Below are positions 1 to 52,339 of a DNA stretch of 64,000 nt, in pieces (positions within the stretch are counted from its first letter, which is position 1; every line of letters begins with the position of its first letter). The position numbers were made by a program, and so were the translations under genes. This stretch comes from an uncultured SAR86 cluster bacterium (GTDB taxonomy: Bacteria > Pseudomonadota > Gammaproteobacteria > Magnimaribacterales > D2472). Below the pieces are notes generated by a model that saw only the letters and a program-made list of their open reading frames with translations, ran no database searches and was not told the origin of the DNA. The stretch lies in contig CABYHU010000004.1 in the NCBI GenBank assembly GCA_902518715.1, positions 7,284-71,283 on the forward strand, read 5' to 3'.

Positions 1-912
1 TGAGAAAATTCTCTCTCCTTCATGCTCATCATGACCTTCTTCTTCGTCACCATGCTCATCACCATGGTCTTCATGACCTTCACCATGATAGGGAACTCCA
101 AAGATACTCTCTGAGCTTGAAACAGCGAGACCAACGTAACCCCAATCAGCTACTTTTGAAACACCAAATCTTGTTGCCTCTTGTGCAGAATCAGAATTAT
201 CTAGATATCCCTTATCTTCCTCATGTTCGTCATGGTCATCATCTCCATGATCATCCTCATCATCATGGTGCTCCTCTTCTTCATGAAGAACTGCACCACT
301 TGGAATATCATAATTTCCAAAGGAAGAGTCGCTATATGAGAAATATAGATTTAAACCACCAAGGTTATCTGCAACAGAAAAGCTTTGCCCATCACCAGAA
401 TTAACTGATTGAGTTTCAAAGCCTAACTTAAGCAATCTCTTTTCAATATCTGAAGTGGCAATTGTATTGTCTACGATATTGATAATACCTCCTGTTGCTC
501 CATTTGCATAAAGCAGTGAAGATGGACCTCTAACAACCTCAATTTGTTGTATATCATTGAGATCTACTTCATTTTTATGATCAGCACCAATTCCTGCAAC
601 ATCCCTGTTGACTAAACCATTGGTAAGAATCTTAACTCTCGAACCACTTAAACCTCTTATGATGGGTTGCCCTACAGCAGTCCCATAATCAGATGATGTG
701 ACACCCAATAGAGAGTCTAGGGTCCCGCCAAGGTCAGTTGTTCCGAAATCAGAAATATCGGTGCCACTTAAAATATGCAATGGATCACCAATTTTATCTT
801 GAGTTACATTCAATATTGATGCTTGAACAACTACTTCTTCAACTTCATCAGAATGAATGAAATTAGCCGAGAAAACGCCCAGCATCGCTAAAATTAATAT
901 TTTATTTTTCAT
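1..912 (-). CDS. TonB-dependent receptor, His-rich, ZnuD-like (runs off window start; not in ORF track)
   Basis: Hand translation from ATG 912 (SD AGGAG): MKNKILILAMLGVFSANFIHS signal, EEVVVQA TonB box, plug motifs GQPIIRGLSGSRVKIL, GADH and IEVVRGPSSLLYANGATGGIINIV, two His/Asp/Glu-rich loops; frame open to position 1. Confidence 0.9.
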   Translation of the reverse strand, partial: MKNKILILAMLGVFSANFIHSDEVEEVVVQASILNVTQDKIGDPLHILSGTDISDFGTTDLGGTLDSLLGVTSSDYGTAVGQPIIRGLSGSRVKILTNGLVNRDVAGIGADHKNEVDLNDIQQIEVVRGPSSLLYANGATGGIINIVDNTIATSDIEKRLLKLGFETQSVNSGDGQSFSVADNLGGLNLYFSYSDSSFGNYDIPSGAVLHEEEEHHDDEDDHGDDDHDEHEEDKGYLDNSDSAQEATRFGVSKVADWGYVGLAVSSSESIFGVPYHGEGHEDHGDEHGDEEEGHDEHEGERIFS

Positions 913-921
913 GTTTACTCC

Positions 922-970
922 TAAAAAAATTTAAAATTTAAAATTTAAAAAATTAAAAAATTAAATTTTT
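922..970. repeat. Pure A/T tract with (AAAATTT)x3 and (AAAAAATT)x2
   Basis: Read directly: AAAATTT x3 at 926-946, AAAAAATT x2 at 947-962. Confidence 0.75.
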
Positions 971-1245
971 GGTGGAGCTCTTTGATGATAATTTTTAGAT
1001 AATGATTGATCATTAAGACTCACAAGTTTAGAGTCTTCAATGTCAAAATCTATAAAAGTTATATTTGTCTCAGAATTTACTAAGTCTTGTGATTGGCTTT
1101 CTTCGCAATAATCGCAGTTGATTTCAAAAGTTTCATCTTCAATTTCAAAAGCTTCAGCAATATGTTCTATTTCATGAGTAGTAGCTAGGGCAAGAAATAA
1201 AAGCCCAAGCAGAAAAGGTGTCTTATTTTTATAATCAGTGGTCAT
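961..1245 (-). CDS. Putative RAPP-motif ribosome arrest leader peptide (DUF2946/CruR/CutF-like) with HExxH and CxxC
   Basis: Hydrophobic N-terminal segment FLLGLLFLALA, H24-E-I-E-H28, C44-D-Y-C47, C-terminal R89-A-P-P92-K-I; directly upstream of the TonB-dependent receptor. Confidence 0.75.
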   Translation of the reverse strand: MTTDYKNKTPFLLGLLFLALATTHEIEHIAEAFEIEDETFEINCDYCEESQSQDLVNSETNITFIDFDIEDSKLVSLNDQSLSKNYHQRAPPKI

Positions 1246-2293
1246 GTTTGAGACATACTAAACCATTAATAGAGCCACTCGCAAGGTCTTTAATAGTTTT
1301 ATCAGCTTCTGAAACATTTCTTGCTTCAACAGGCACAGGATCAATCTTCCCAGATCTAACTAAATCCATCAATTCACCCATCTCAGCTAAGCTTCCAACA
1401 TATGTTCCAGTGAGTGTTCTTGCTGTCAATGTTACTAGCGGCAGTTGAAGCGTAGTCTGGCCACCAAGCAACCCTACTAAAACATAAGTACCACCTCGAA
1501 CAAGACCGAAAAGACCATAAGCAAATTCAAAAGCTGGAGCAGCTCCAACAAAGTCAATCACACTTTTAGCTCCACCACCAGTAATCTCAAATATTTTCAT
1601 TGCAGCATCTTCATCATTGGAATTAATAGCAGCTGATGCGCCTGCCTCCTTAGCAATAGCTAATTTTTCATCATCAATATCAACAACAATTGGATTGATA
1701 TCATATACAGCTTTTAATATTCTGAGAGATAGCAACCCCATCCCTCCGGCTCCTACAACTACAACAGATTTTTGACCTTCTATAAGATTAGCTTTTTTAA
1801 TTGCGCTATATGCAGTTAGTCCTCTGCAAGCATAACTTCCAGCAAGATCGTCATGTGTATCTCCAGCATCAAAGAGATATTTCTTATCTGGAACTAAGAC
1901 ATACTCACCATATCCACCATCCCTAGTAATTCCGATATTTCTATTTGTTGTAATTCCACAATAGTGTTCATTTCCGCTTAAACAGACTTCACACTTACCA
2001 CACCCAATCCAAGGATATACCACATATTTTTTGCCTATCTCAAGATCCGTAACATTTTCACCAAGCTCAACAACTTCTCCAAAAACCTCATGGCCCATGG
2101 CAAGATCTTTTGCTGGGGAAGGAAGCTTTGCACCTCCACCTAGATCAAAAAAACCCTCATAAATGTGAACATCTGAATGACAGACACCACATGAAACTGT
2201 TCTCACAAGAATTTCGTCACCGACAGGAACAGGCTTTTCAATTTCAACCTTTTTTAAGGGTTTGCCGTTTTCTATGATTTTGTATGATTTCAC
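1235..2293 (-). CDS. Zinc-dependent alcohol dehydrogenase (MDR family)
   Basis: CGVCHSD, GHE, structural Zn CGKCEVC..C, Rossmann GAGGMG. Confidence 0.93.
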   Translation of the reverse strand: MKSYKIIENGKPLKKVEIEKPVPVGDEILVRTVSCGVCHSDVHIYEGFFDLGGGAKLPSPAKDLAMGHEVFGEVVELGENVTDLEIGKKYVVYPWIGCGKCEVCLSGNEHYCGITTNRNIGITRDGGYGEYVLVPDKKYLFDAGDTHDDLAGSYACRGLTAYSAIKKANLIEGQKSVVVVGAGGMGLLSLRILKAVYDINPIVVDIDDEKLAIAKEAGASAAINSNDEDAAMKIFEITGGGAKSVIDFVGAAPAFEFAYGLFGLVRGGTYVLVGLLGGQTTLQLPLVTLTARTLTGTYVGSLAEMGELMDLVRSGKIDPVPVEARNVSEADKTIKDLASGSINGLVCLKHDH

Positions 2294-2296
2294 AGT

Positions 2297-2536
2297 TTAT
2301 TTTGAAACTTCATATTTTATTATTGTACTATTTTTTATATCCTCCCATCTCTTTTTTTCAGTTAAATAGCACAAGATTGAATCTGATTCTCCGCTTTGAT
2401 TAAATGAGTATCCCTCTGGTATTAAGTCTTTATTAAGGGAGCATTTTTCAGTAATTAATCTTCCACTTTTTAAGGACTTAAAAGTAATTTTAACTTCACT
2501 AGACTCTAAAAGTTTTTTAAGATCTTTTATCTCCAT
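2297..2536 (-). CDS. Small hypothetical protein, possible SH3/Sm-like beta-barrel (WYL_2/DUF2693-like)
   Basis: Pattern LKKLL..VKITFKS..SGR....CSLN.DLIP...SIL.Y.....W; 3 nt upstream of the ADH start. Confidence 0.6.
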   Translation of the reverse strand: MEIKDLKKLLESSEVKITFKSLKSGRLITEKCSLNKDLIPEGYSFNQSGESDSILCYLTEKKRWEDIKNSTIIKYEVSK

Positions 2537-51928: not shown

Positions 51929-52339
51929 ATGAGCACACAAGACGCTGTTAAAAAAGCTGGACTTAAAGCAACTTTACCAAGAATGTTGATACTTGAGGTA
52001 TTGGCTAAAACTATTGATAGTGAAGTTCATCTAAGCGCAGAAGATATTTATAAAGATCTTCTCACGAGTGGTGATGATGTTGGCCTAGCAACTGTTTATA
52101 GAGTTCTATCACAATTTGAATCTGCTGGAATAGTTACCAGGCATAATTTTGAAGAGGGGCACTCAGTCTATGAGATGACCCAAGATCATCATCATGACCA
52201 TATGGTTTGCGTTGATACTGGAAAAACTATCGAGTTTCATGATCCAGAAATTGAAAAAAGACAGGATGATATTGCAGCTTCTCATGGGTATGAGATTGTA
52301 GATAGAAGTTCAGTTATTTTCGTCAAAAAGACTGATTAA
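51929..52339 (+). CDS. fur: Ferric uptake regulator
   Basis: GLKATLPR, HLSAEDIY, GLATVYRVL.QFE, HHDHMVC. Confidence 0.96.
   Translation: MSTQDAVKKAGLKATLPRMLILEVLAKTIDSEVHLSAEDIYKDLLTSGDDVGLATVYRVLSQFESAGIVTRHNFEEGHSVYEMTQDHHHDHMVCVDTGKTIEFHDPEIEKRQDDIAASHGYEIVDRSSVIFVKKTD

What the first reader, a model, noticed from the sequence alone, without database searches (positions are those of the whole stretch)
913..1245. Candidate metal-sensing RAPP ribosome-arrest leader controlling a ZnuD-like receptor
Seen: the 94-aa ORF has basic residues plus a hydrophobic signal-like segment (aa 6-21), H24-E-I-E-H28, an acidic stretch, C44-D-Y-C47, a 41-residue spacer and R89-A-P-P92 two codons before the stop. 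It ends 48 nt before the ATG of a TonB-dependent receptor. Established: RAPP-type motifs stall ribosomes (ApdA, ApdP, ApcA; SecM has RAGP). DUF2946 leaders with CxxC plus RAPP-like ends regulate downstream copper genes (CruR before the Bordetella TonB receptor BfrG, CutF before Rhodobacter cutO). Inference: the spacer approximates the exit-tunnel length, so the His/Cys ligands would be outside the stalled ribosome, at the Sec translocon, where metal binding could release arrest. The target here looks like a zinc rather than copper importer and no Zur box is visible. This may be an undescribed zinc-responsive, protein-regulator-free uptake switch in a streamlined marine bacterium.
Basis: partly seen in the sequence, partly recalled or inferred. 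Interest (0 to 1): 0.9.

Follow-up and report, generated by a model that had tools for sequence, protein, structure and literature searches.

The report
Metal-sensing ribosome-arrest leader before receptor
A tiny conserved gene ahead of a zinc-receptor-like outer-membrane importer looks like a self-stalling leader peptide that unmasks the importer's ribosome-binding site, a compact marine variant of the known copper-sensing CruR/CutF switches.

Summary
Every stated motif is in the minus-strand ORF 961..1245 (94 aa).

The ORF is conserved. All 70 fetched loci, from seven genera of the same family, carry a small ORF of this kind. It has an export-type N-terminus, a His motif, CxxC, a divergent spacer of fixed length (40 or 41 aa in 62 of 62 parsed) and [R/Q]APP 1-4 residues before the stop. 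A 35-48 nt A/T-rich gap, a strong Shine-Dalgarno site and a TonB-dependent receptor follow.

One new point: the Ala-Pro-Pro, tail and stop codons are predicted to pair with the gap and the receptor's Shine-Dalgarno site in 62 of 62 loci. A ribosome arrested on APP would therefore expose that site.

The Pfam DUF2946 model does not hit the protein, the spacer is about 4 aa shorter than in DUF2946, and the gene is often not first in its operon. I read it as a new variant of the known CruR/CutF kind, not a new kind.

Zinc is plausible but unproven. The receptor is closest to ZnuD, the own genome shows Fur but no Zur, and a sister genus has a Zur-like regulator. Arrest and metal response are inferred, not shown.

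The parts
961..1245 (-). Leader ORF, 94 aa (stop codon 961-963)
   Evidence: Homologous small ORFs are present in 70 of 70 fetched loci. There are 148 cluster representatives among 1.84 billion proteins.
1183..1230 (-). Residues 6-21: basic n-region (K6, K8) and hydrophobic core F11-A21, with A19-L-A21 before T22. Read as an export signal or membrane anchor.
   Evidence: Sequence reading. F17 is invariant in 28 sequences. AlphaFold2 gives one helix, residues 9-33, with block pLDDT 94 for residues 11-20. No signal-peptide predictor was available.
1162..1176 (-). H24-E-I-E-H28, a His motif directly after the hydrophobic segment
   Evidence: H28 is conserved in at least 90% of 101 representatives. 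Other genera have HSFAH, DP[FL]xHDH or HSFADHHDH at this position.
1105..1116 (-). C44-D-Y-C47 (CxxC)
   Evidence: C44 is invariant and C47 is conserved in at least 90% of 101 representatives. Ten of the 101 lack the second Cys.
982..1104 (-). Spacer, residues 48-88: 41 aa of divergent sequence but fixed length
   Evidence: The spacer is 40 (21 loci) or 41 (41 loci) in 62 parsed loci. Among 97 representatives it is 40-41 in 83, 42-44 in 13 and 46 in 1.
970..981 (-). R89-A-P-P92 codons (AGA GCT CCA CCA), the putative arrest site
   Evidence: A90, P91 and P92 are invariant in 28 sequences. P91 and P92 are invariant and R89 and A90 are conserved in at least 90% of 101. Arrest itself is inferred from CruR, ApdA and ApdP (PMC12992588, passages).
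913..960 (-). 48-nt intergenic gap, 44 of 48 bases A or T, ending in the receptor's Shine-Dalgarno site
   Evidence: The gap is 35-48 nt in the 62 relatives parsed.
918..922 (-). Shine-Dalgarno AGGAG of the receptor, 5 nt before its ATG (910-912)
   Evidence: GGAG is present in all 62 parsed loci. Only 72 ORFs of 200 aa or more in the own genome have GGAG at -16..-4.
974..978 (-). Hairpin stem 1, 5' arm (GCUCC of the Ala90 and Pro91 codons). It pairs with GGAGU at 917-921.
   Evidence: strand folding gives MFE -13.2 kcal/mol, z -2.09, with 5 of 200 shuffles as stable. The Shine-Dalgarno site pairs with the APP region at P>0.5 in 62 of 62 loci.
961..970 (-). Hairpin stem 2, 5' arm (last base of the Pro92 codon, Lys93, Ile94 and the stop). 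It pairs with 925-934 in the gap.
   Evidence: The stop codon is paired in 56 of 56 unique junctions. In all 18 loci with a TAG stop, its G pairs with a C in the gap.
1..912 (-). 5' part of the ZnuD-like TonB-dependent receptor. The gene runs off the window; it is 747 aa in G000:C4:5952-8195.
   Evidence: NCBIfam ZnuD scores 198.1 bits end to end, against a cut-off of 950, while the copper receptor model scores 53. The best PDB match is ZnuD 4rdr at 122.8 bits; FepA scores 46.8 and OprC 27.9. The protein has 36 His, 0 Cys and six His/Asp/Glu-rich stretches.
1235..2293 (-). Zinc-type alcohol dehydrogenase gene. Its stop (1235-1237) lies 11 nt inside the leader ORF.
   Evidence: An orthologue sits on the same strand at -11 to +36 nt in 30 of 62 loci.

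Best explanation
The 94-aa ORF is a cis-acting regulatory leader of the CruR/CutF kind.

Proposed mechanism (steps 1-4 are inferred unless marked otherwise):
1. The leader is translated by coupling to the upstream alcohol dehydrogenase gene. It has no Shine-Dalgarno site of its own, and the two frames overlap by 11 nt.
2. Its N-terminus is an export signal.
3. When the ribosome reaches R89-A-P-P92 it arrests, with the two Pro codons in the P and A sites.
4. The arrested ribosome covers the Ala-Pro-Pro, Lys, Ile and stop codons. These form the 5' arm of a hairpin whose 3' arm is the U-rich gap plus the receptor's Shine-Dalgarno site. Arrest therefore frees the Shine-Dalgarno site and start codon, and the receptor is translated.
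5. At the moment of arrest, C47 is 44 residues from the P-site Pro and H24/H28 are 63-67 residues from it. The His/Cys module is thus just outside the exit tunnel.
6. Metal binding to this module is proposed to release the arrest, as proposed for copper and CruR. The ribosome then terminates, the hairpin re-forms and import is switched off when the metal is plentiful.
7. The metal is most likely zinc (about 55%), otherwise copper or another divalent metal.

Shown by computation: conservation of the ORF, its motifs and its spacing; synteny with the receptor; and the predicted hairpin.
Inferred: the arrest, the direction of the response and the identity of the metal.
For: ORF and motifs: 70 of 70 loci carry the ORF. 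The spacer is 40 or 41 aa in 62 of 62 parsed loci. Invariant columns are C44, P91 and P92, and H28, C47, R89 and A90 are conserved in at least 90% of 101 representatives whose mean column identity is 17%.

Rarity of RAPP: it is absent from the 847 long ORFs of the own genome. This fits the reported avoidance of RAPP in proteomes (PMC12992588, passages).

Synteny: in 28 of 29 loci a long ORF begins 37-48 nt after the leader's stop. One locus was too short to tell. By eye, 27 of these are orthologues of the window's receptor and one (L015) is an orthologue of its second receptor.

Hairpin:
- The Shine-Dalgarno site pairs with the APP region at P>0.5 in 62 of 62 loci at 37 C, with a mean of 0.94.
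- There are 12-28 ORF-to-gap pairs, median 19.
- The G of a TAG stop pairs with a C in the gap in 18 of 18 TAG loci.
- No shuffle of the gap (0 of 25) was as stable in 32 of 57 junctions, and at most 1 of 25 in 44 of 57.
- The receptor's Shine-Dalgarno site is the second most sequestered of the 72 GGAG sites in the own genome, with P(unpaired) 3.5e-6 against a median of 0.034.
- For the window's own junction, z is -2.09.

Precedents:
- CruR: RAPP and CxxC are required, and spacing matters (PMC9426467 section 9).
- CruR arrests in vitro with the two Pro codons in the P and A sites (PMC12992588, passage).

Zinc:
- The receptor is closest to ZnuD.
- The ligand set is His plus Cys.
- The own genome has Fur only.
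- Most of the 49 relatives that are at least 85% complete have a single Fur-family gene.
- In sister genus g6 the second Fur-family gene scores best as Zur (106-122 bits).
- The g6 receptor orthologues, 53-60% identical, carry an AT-rich palindrome upstream.

Expression: contigs of seawater RNA libraries from 4 studies cover the leader ORF (973-1271), the dehydrogenase gene and the receptor gene. The tool warns that DNA can be present in such libraries.
Against: - Nothing here shows arrest, metal binding or regulation.
- In one genus (21 of 62 loci) the motif is QAPP, whereas replacing the Arg abolished arrest or regulation in CruR (PMC9426467 section 9; PMC12992588 passage).
- Ten of 101 representatives lack the second Cys.
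- The pairing of the Shine-Dalgarno site with Pro/Ala codons is nearly automatic in an A/U-rich context. The site stayed sequestered in most synonymous recodings and gap shuffles. The native codons beat all 25 recodings in only 12 of 57 junctions.
- RNAalifold on a MAFFT alignment gave no consensus structure.
- AlphaFold2 predicts no folded metal site, only helix 9-33.
- The ZnuD score is far below the model's cut-off, 198 against 950.
- The palindromes in g6 match the published E. coli Zur motif with only 2-3 mismatches. Matches at that level are common by chance in these genomes: the own genome has 22 matches at up to 2 mismatches.
- ZnuA was not found in the own genome.
- Rho is present, so CruR-type termination is not excluded.
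Confidence: 0.6

Rival explanations
1. It is simply a copper-responsive CruR orthologue. Copper binds the CxxC of the nascent chain and relieves arrest, and Rho then terminates transcription before the receptor. The hairpin is incidental.
For: The anatomy is the same as CruR (PMC9426467 sections 9-11). Rho is present in the own genome. The 3' half of the leader has slightly more C than G, 23 against 17. Profiles cross-hit bridging short forms at 20-25 bits. Six of 101 representatives have weak PF11162 hits.
Against: The gap is 48 nt with one C and no YC dimers, against 162 bp in B. pertussis. The Pfam model does not hit the protein. The receptor scores 53 bits on the copper-receptor model against 198 on ZnuD. 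It shares only plug-level similarity with seven receptors that follow true DUF2946 genes. None of the copper partners seen beside those genes (PCuAC-like and SCO-like by eye) is present here. The leader is not first in the operon in 30 of 62 loci.
Confidence: 0.15
2. It is an arrest leader that senses no metal. It would be a secretion monitor, or a constitutive coupling device, whose arrest is released by the pulling force of Sec-dependent export. The His and Cys residues would serve folding or disulfide formation.
For: Many RAPP-type arrest peptides have localisation signals and monitor export (PMC12992588, passages). The N-terminal hydrophobic segment is conserved. Ten of 101 representatives lack CxxC.
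Against: The downstream gene is a metal-type receptor, not a Sec or YidC component. C44 is invariant and H28 and C47 are conserved in at least 90% of representatives. The fixed distance to the arrest site parallels the metal-sensing CruR, whose signal peptide was dispensable (PMC9426467 section 9).
Confidence: 0.1
3. The polarity is as in CutF. Metal binding induces or prolongs stalling, so the receptor is switched on when the metal is abundant.
For: The output device, a stem-loop over the ribosome-binding site, is the CutF type (bioRxiv 10.1101/2025.02.05.636593, Discussion).
Against: The target is an importer. Switching an importer on when its metal is abundant makes little physiological sense. 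CutF uses PPP and CxxxC and depends on EF-P, whereas RAPP arrest is described as refractory to EF-P (PMC12992588, abstract passage).
Confidence: 0.05
4. It is a stable small periplasmic metal-binding protein, a chaperone or metallophore-like partner of the receptor, and the C-terminal APP is structural.
For: It has an export signal, His/Cys ligands and an acidic composition.
Against: The spacer is hypervariable but of fixed length. The only invariant C-terminal residues are APP, 1-4 residues from the stop. AlphaFold2 predicts disorder after residue 33. RAPP is otherwise absent from the long ORFs of the proteome.
Confidence: 0.05

Closest known systems
CruR (Bp2923) of Bordetella pertussis, Pfam DUF2946 (PMC9426467; abstract and sections 9-11 read)
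   Same: It is a small exported uORF with CxxC, a spacer of conserved length and RAPP a few residues before the stop. It sits directly upstream of a TonB-dependent transporter and is proposed to release arrest on metal binding.
   Different: CruR is 145 aa against 94 here. Its spacer is 45 aa, and 43-47 in 25 of 27 DUF2946 ORFs, against 40-41 here. The DUF2946 segment between the signal peptide and CxxC, with its semiconserved Cys, is missing here and a His motif stands in its place. The gap is 162 bp in B. pertussis against 48 nt here. CruR's output is Rho termination, whereas a Shine-Dalgarno hairpin is predicted here. CruR genes head their operons, whereas this leader follows an alcohol dehydrogenase gene in 30 of 62 loci. 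The Pfam model does not hit the protein.
CutF of Rhodobacter capsulatus (bioRxiv 10.1101/2025.02.05.636593; abstract and Discussion read)
   Same: [quoted passage not shown]
   Different: CutF has CxxxC and a PPP motif, depends on EF-P, is stalled by copper and controls a detoxifying oxidase. Here the motifs are CxxC and RAPP, the target is an importer, and the opposite polarity is expected. Here the 5' arm of the stem is made of the arrest codons themselves.
RAPP/RGPP uORFs upstream of TonB-dependent receptors, surveyed by Fujiwara et al. (PMC12992588; passages read, supplements closed)
   Same: C-terminal RAPP, a signal sequence and a downstream TonB receptor. The class is described as widespread in Gram-negative bacteria.
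   Different: The passages I read do not describe this subfamily, a ZnuD-type target, the 40-41 aa spacing, the QAPP form or the hairpin. Its supplementary lists, which I could not open, may include members.
SecM, ApdA and ApdP monitoring substrates
   Same: An arrest core of the RAPP or RAGP type at the peptidyl-transferase centre, an export signal, and control of the downstream gene by exposing its ribosome-binding site (the secM-secA mechanism is recalled, and is cited in the CutF Discussion).
   Different: Those sense export machinery activity, not a metal. They share no sequence similarity with this leader outside the core.
ZnuD with Zur repression (PDB 4rdr; Zur review PMC6103462, passages read)
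   Same: The receptor's nearest characterised relative is ZnuD.
   Different: The score is 198 bits against the model's cut-off of 950. The own genome has no Zur gene, and control would be translational.

Membership tests
DUF2946 / CruR (PF11162) | Match to the Pfam model at or above its gathering score (23.7 bits) | tested here: not met
   No hit at E<=10 on the protein or in the own genome. Six of 101 family representatives hit weakly, best E 0.0053.
DUF2946 / CruR (PF11162) | Invariant CxxC | tested here: met
   C44-x-x-C47 is present. C44 is invariant and C47 is conserved in at least 90%. Ten of 101 representatives lack the second Cys.
DUF2946 / CruR (PF11162) | RAPP a few residues from the C-terminus | tested here: met
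   R89APP92 is followed by 2 residues. Among 62 loci, 41 have RAPP and 21 have QAPP, with tails of 1-4 residues.
DUF2946 / CruR (PF11162) | [quoted passage not shown] | tested here: not met
   The spacer here is 41 aa, and 40-41 across the family. In true DUF2946 ORFs from 22 genomes the mode is 45 (12 of 27) and the range 43-47, with two outliers. The principle of fixed spacing holds, but the value does not.
DUF2946 / CruR (PF11162) | N-terminal export signal | tested here: inconclusive
   K6 and K8, a hydrophobic stretch 11-21 and A-L-A before T22 were read from the sequence. AlphaFold2 gives helix 9-33. No signal-peptide predictor was run.
DUF2946 / CruR (PF11162) | First gene of its operon, with a long gap before the next gene | tested here: not met
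   The dehydrogenase stop overlaps the leader by 11 nt, and this layout (gap -11 to +36 nt) is seen in 30 of 62 loci. The gap to the receptor is 48 nt.
DUF2946 / CruR (PF11162) | Detectable homology by profile comparison | tested here: inconclusive
   Local hhalign gives 19% probability over 15 columns at CxxC. Global hhalign gives 15% over 114 collinear columns. The leader profile hits two short borderline DUF2946 forms at 24.9 and 22.0 bits. The DUF2946 profile hits family member P0133 at 24.0 bits but the window protein at only 7.3 bits.
RAPP-type ribosome arrest peptides | Ribosome arrest at the RAPP codons | not testable with these tools
   Only the motif, its position and its conservation could be tested.
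CutF-type output (stem-loop shielding the next ribosome-binding site) | mRNA structure that sequesters the downstream Shine-Dalgarno site and would be opened by the stalled ribosome | tested here: met
   This is a prediction only. It holds in 62 of 62 loci.
ZnuD (NCBIfam NF038289) | Score at or above the model's cut-off (950 bits) | tested here: not met
   The score is 198.1 bits. It is an end-to-end alignment and the best of 19 families. ZnuD is also the best PDB match at 122.8 bits. The receptor is ZnuD-like, not a shown ZnuD.

The most novel reading that the evidence does not exclude
This is the first zinc-responsive arrest peptide. A His2Cys2 module is held a fixed 41 residues from an RAPP arrest site. 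It would fold on zinc just outside the ribosomal exit tunnel and pull the chain out of arrest. That would be a natural counterpart of the laboratory experiments with zinc-finger domains fused to arrest peptides, which I recall but did not check. The arrest codons themselves form the anti-Shine-Dalgarno arm. In the window's genus this device would have replaced Zur altogether. It is embedded in a constitutive operon of an abundant, streamlined marine gammaproteobacterium. Sister lineages show the intermediate states: a Zur-like regulator plus the leader, or a Zur-like regulator alone.
Probability: 0.35. Interest if true: 0.8.

Novelty: new variant of a known kind. Interest (0 to 1): 0.62.

Why it matters
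No zinc-sensing riboswitch or leader peptide was found in my literature searches (none of the listed papers links ZnuD or zinc uptake to an arrest peptide). The CruR paper notes that no riboswitch is known for copper or zinc. If this family responds to zinc, nascent-chain metal sensing would extend beyond copper.

It would also show how genome-streamlined ocean bacteria regulate trace-metal import without a dedicated transcription factor.

The system is compact and well suited to experiment: 94 codons, a 48-nt gap and a hairpin made of the arrest codons. Nature has supplied variants for comparison, namely RAPP against QAPP, CxxC against a single Cys, and 40-, 41- and 44-residue spacers.

Even if the metal is copper, the family is an unannotated branch of the CruR kind. 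It has 148 cluster representatives, none carrying a name, and current Pfam models miss it.

Tried and rejected
- RNAalifold on a MAFFT alignment of 42 junctions gave no consensus structure. The Shine-Dalgarno columns were misaligned and the pairs are mostly A-U. I used per-sequence folding instead.
- The probability that the Shine-Dalgarno site is unpaired did not discriminate native from synonymous or shuffled versions in most loci. Any Ala-Pro-Pro coding sequence pairs with GGAG. Only ensemble energies were informative.
- AlphaFold2 on the 101-sequence alignment gave no folded metal site, so no fold search was made.
- A Fur-box consensus found no match in the window at up to 3 mismatches.
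- The promoter scan found no sigma-70-like site on the minus strand in 850-2700. It found 4 sites, all on the plus strand, against a shuffle mean of 7.2.
- No inverted repeat of note lies in the divergent region 2537-2611.
- The published E. coli Zur motif matched the g6 sites only at chance level for these A/T-rich genomes. A 15-nt core found nothing near the Zur-like genes. My 17-nt palindrome search was circular for the three sites it was derived from, and its matches at up to 3 mismatches were no more frequent than those of the reversed control.
- Laid RNA-library contigs do not cover 922-972. The tool skipped that stretch as a repeat. This says nothing about read-through or termination in the gap.
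- The search for homologous proteins returned mostly near-identical proteins without names and did not help link the family to DUF2946.
- Three other strongly sequestered Shine-Dalgarno sites in the own genome lie inside upstream coding regions and have no RAPP leader.
- I considered a structure search, a complex prediction and an atlas search and did not run them. They would not bear on arrest or on the identity of the metal.
- Supplementary tables of PMC9426467 and PMC12992588 are closed. They may already list members of this family.
- The assignment to SAR86 is my recollection from genome size and G+C content. It was not tested. The two named relatives are titled only as uncultured Gammaproteobacteria or Pseudomonadota (L111, L112).
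Full report
**1. The observation**

The window's minus strand carries a 94-aa ORF at 961..1245.
- K6 and K8, followed by a hydrophobic stretch F11-A21;
- H24-E-I-E-H28;
- an acidic run;
- C44-D-Y-C47;
- 41 residues from 48 to 88;
- R89-A-P-P92, then K-I and the stop.

The next ATG (910-912) lies 48 nt further on. It opens a TonB-dependent receptor with a Plug domain (E 9e-18). The window is G000:C4:7284-71283 in a 1.07-Mb assembly of 24 contigs with about 34% G+C. On the contig the receptor is 747 aa. A second receptor of 868 aa follows 49 nt after it.

**2. Conservation**

A search of 139 genomes of the same family with the 94-aa protein matched 82 at E<=1. I fetched 70 loci.

- All 70 contain a small frame that ends in APP plus at most six residues.
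- In the 62 I could parse, the distance from CxxC to [R/Q]APP is 40 residues (21 loci) or 41 (41 loci). The motif is RAPP in 41 and QAPP in 21. The tail is 1-4 residues. One partial ORF and seven loci where my start rule failed were dropped.
- Identity between genera is only about 21-31%. In 28 aligned sequences the invariant columns are F17, C44, C47, A90, P91 and P92.

A profile search of 1.84 billion cluster representatives found 148 at E<=0.001.

- Of the 97 that have both motifs, the spacer is 40-41 in 83, 42-44 in 13 and 46 in 1.
- Ten of 101 complete representatives have lost the second Cys.
- In those 101, C44, P91 and P92 are invariant. H28, C47, R89 and A90 are conserved in at least 90%. 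Mean column identity is 17%.
- None of the best 120 database relatives carries a name or a DUF2946 annotation.

In the own genome RAPP is absent from all 847 ORFs of 150 aa or more. The leader is the only ORF with RAPP at its C-terminus.

This pattern is a divergent spacer of fixed length, with invariance confined to a few ligand-type residues and the last residues before the stop. It is what one expects of a cis-acting arrest peptide, not of a folded protein. AlphaFold2 accordingly predicts only helix 9-33.

**3. Surroundings**

*Downstream.* In 28 of 29 loci a long ORF starts 37-48 nt after the leader's stop. One locus was too short to tell. By eye, 27 are orthologues of the window's receptor and one (L015) is an orthologue of the second receptor. 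The gap is nearly pure A/T and ends in AGGAG or GGAGG.

*Upstream.* In 30 of 62 loci from several genera, an orthologue of the zinc-type alcohol dehydrogenase lies on the same strand at -11 to +36 nt. In the window the frames overlap by 11 nt. The leader has no Shine-Dalgarno site of its own. No promoter-like site was found on the minus strand between 850 and 2700. In these genera the leader is therefore an internal, translationally coupled cistron, unlike cruR genes, which head their operons (PMC9426467 section 10).

In the QAPP genus (21 of 62 loci) the neighbouring gene is divergent. A conserved TTGTAA-17-TATAAT-like promoter ends about 8 nt before the leader's ATG.

**4. A hairpin made of the arrest codons**

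Folding the end of the leader, the gap and the start of the receptor gives the same design everywhere.

- The Ala-Pro codons (GCUCC or CCUCC) pair with the receptor's Shine-Dalgarno site.
- The tail and stop codons pair with the U-rich gap.

For the window the MFE is -13.2 kcal/mol, with z -2.09 and 5 of 200 dinucleotide shuffles as stable. Stem 1 pairs 974-978 with 917-921. Stem 2 pairs 961-970 with 925-934.

Across the loci:
- The Shine-Dalgarno site pairs with the APP region at probability above 0.5 in 62 of 62 at 37 C (mean 0.94), and in 61 of 62 at 15 C.
- In 56 unique junctions there are 12-28 ORF-to-gap pairs (median 19), and the stop codon is always paired. In all 18 loci with a TAG stop, its G pairs with one of the few C's in the gap. 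This is at least one compensatory change between clades.
- Shuffling the gap gave no version as stable (0 of 25) in 32 of 57 junctions, and at most 1 of 25 in 44 of 57. The mean difference was -3.9 kcal/mol.
- Among the 72 ORFs of the own genome with a GGAG site, the receptor's is the second most sequestered, with P(unpaired) 3.5e-6 against a median of 0.034.

Two caveats apply. Related genomes are not independent. Pairing of Pro/Ala codons with GGAG is close to automatic, and the native codons beat all 25 synonymous recodings in only 12 of 57 junctions.

A ribosome arrested with Pro91 and Pro92 in the P and A sites was the position mapped for CruR (PMC12992588, passage). Such a ribosome would cover the whole 5' arm and leave the Shine-Dalgarno site about 40 nt beyond its leading edge. 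This is the CutF and SecM type of output (bioRxiv 10.1101/2025.02.05.636593, Discussion). It is not the Rho-dependent termination shown for CruR.

**5. Relation to DUF2946, CruR and CutF**

The Pfam model does not hit the protein or the own genome. Six of 101 relatives hit weakly.

I collected 27 true DUF2946 ORFs. Their spacer has a mode of 45 (12 of 27) and a range of 43-47, with two outliers caused by duplicated motifs. This matches the 45 reported for CruR.

- Local profile-profile comparison aligns only the CxxC region (19% probability).
- The global mode aligns the signal, CxxC and RAPP collinearly. It shows a deletion of the DUF2946 segment between the signal and CxxC, and a shorter spacer (15% probability).
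- Bridging sequences exist. The leader profile scores 24.9 and 22.0 bits on two short borderline DUF2946 forms that also have a His motif after the membrane segment. The DUF2946 profile scores 24.0 bits on family member P0133 but 7.3 bits on the window protein.

My reading is a probable distant branch of the same superfamily that works in the same general way. It fails the family's formal tests.

**6. Which metal**

Evidence that points to zinc:
- The receptor aligns end to end with the ZnuD model at 198 bits. The heme-receptor subfamily scores 123 and the copper receptor 53.
- Its best solved relative is ZnuD 4rdr at 122.8 bits, against FepA at 46.8 and OprC at 27.9.
- It has 36 His, no Cys and six His/Asp/Glu-rich insertions.
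- It shares only plug-level similarity with receptors that follow true DUF2946 genes. Several other true DUF2946 genes are followed by ORFs that look PCuAC- or SCO-like by eye.
- The own genome, 85% complete, has one Fur-family gene. It scores as Fur at 172 bits, above its cut-off of 146.
- Of 49 relatives at least 85% complete, eight have a second Fur-family gene. In genus g6 that gene scores best as Zur, at 106-122 bits against a cut-off of 167.
- The g6 receptor orthologues are 53-60% identical and have an AT-rich palindrome upstream. Two of those genomes also have the leader, which my first search had missed. One has the palindrome but no leader.

This series fits a picture of Zur control and leader control of one zinc importer.

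Evidence against, or limits:
- The palindromes match the published E. coli Zur motif only at a level that chance gives in these genomes.
- ZnuA was not found in the own genome.
- The ZnuD score is far below the model's cut-off of 950.

I put zinc at about 55%.

**7. Expression**

Six seawater RNA-library runs hold 56-69% of the sampled words of 1-2600. Contigs from four studies cover the dehydrogenase gene, the leader ORF (973-1271, some without a single difference) and the receptor gene. The tool warns that DNA can be present in RNA libraries and that contigs show neither strand nor transcript ends.

**8. What is known, and the verdict**

- CruR: PMC9426467, abstract and sections 9-11.
- CutF: bioRxiv 10.1101/2025.02.05.636593, abstract and Discussion. 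The earlier papers PMC8456105 and PMC9973294 were seen in the search listing only.
- Survey of RAPP/RGPP uORFs, including a class upstream of TonB receptors: PMC12992588, passages.

These establish the kind. Several things are new here:
- an unannotated, compact subfamily in abundant uncultured marine gammaproteobacteria;
- its own spacing rule;
- a His-plus-Cys ligand set;
- an anti-Shine-Dalgarno arm made of the arrest codons;
- an internal position in the operon;
- a QAPP clade;
- a ZnuD-like target that may make it the first zinc-responsive example.

Searches listed no paper that links ZnuD or zinc uptake to an arrest peptide.

Arrest, the direction of the response and the metal are inferences. 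I rate it a new variant of a known kind, with interest 0.62.

Noticed in passing
window 1235-1245 (minus strand); loci L002-L068: The stop of a zinc-type alcohol dehydrogenase gene lies 11 nt inside the leader ORF. The same dehydrogenase-leader-receptor order, with gaps of -11 to +36 nt, is kept in 30 of 62 loci across several genera. This suggests translational coupling, and a zinc enzyme co-transcribed with the putative zinc importer.
   Followed up: partly
loci L013-L070 of genus g4 (e.g. L018, about 1420-1490 in the leader's orientation): In the QAPP clade the leader has its own conserved promoter-like element (TTGTAA, 17 nt, TATAAT-like) ending about 8 nt before the ATG, so the mRNA may be almost leaderless. 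An imperfect inverted repeat overlaps the -10 box. Three of the nine g4 genomes that are at least 85% complete have a second Fur-family gene.
   Followed up: partly
L113, L114, L115 (genus g6); L116, L117: Genus g6 has a Zur-like second Fur-family gene and an AT-rich palindrome upstream of the receptor orthologue. G062 and G067 also have the leader, which the single-protein search missed. G063 has the palindrome but no leader. A perfect 17-nt palindrome of the same type lies before a 127-aa membrane protein gene in G063 (L122).
   Followed up: partly
G000:C4:3296-5902 (left of the window); L015: A second TonB-dependent receptor (868 aa) follows the first after 49 nt on the same strand. In L015 the leader directly precedes the orthologue of this second receptor, not the ZnuD-like one. 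The leader can therefore serve either receptor.
   Followed up: no
window 2297-2536 (minus strand): A 79-aa ORF ends 3 nt before the dehydrogenase start. It may be the first gene of the transcription unit. The divergent region 2537-2611 shows no palindrome of note.
   Followed up: no
whole own genome: Only 72 ORFs of 200 aa or more, counted from the first ATG, have GGAG at -16..-4. Strong Shine-Dalgarno sites are thus uncommon in this genome, and the receptor's AGGAG stands out.
   Followed up: no
window 51929-52339 (plus strand): This is the only clear Fur-family gene of the assembly. It scores as Fur (172 bits, cut-off 146) and lies between a small lipoprotein-like ORF and a GrpE-like ORF, both read by eye.
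   Followed up: yes
proteins P0024, P0027, P0037, P0072, P0096, P0100, P0101, P0130, P0131, P0138: Ten of 101 family representatives keep the first Cys, the His motif, the spacing and RAPP but have lost the second Cys. They are natural variants useful for testing what the sensor needs.
   Followed up: no
proteins P0030, P0055, P0110, P0137: Several database representatives share an unrelated C-terminal tail (CLLYTSPSPRD...) in place of the true end. I recall this as translated sequencing-adapter sequence, meaning chimeric short contigs. I left them out of the alignment.
   Followed up: no
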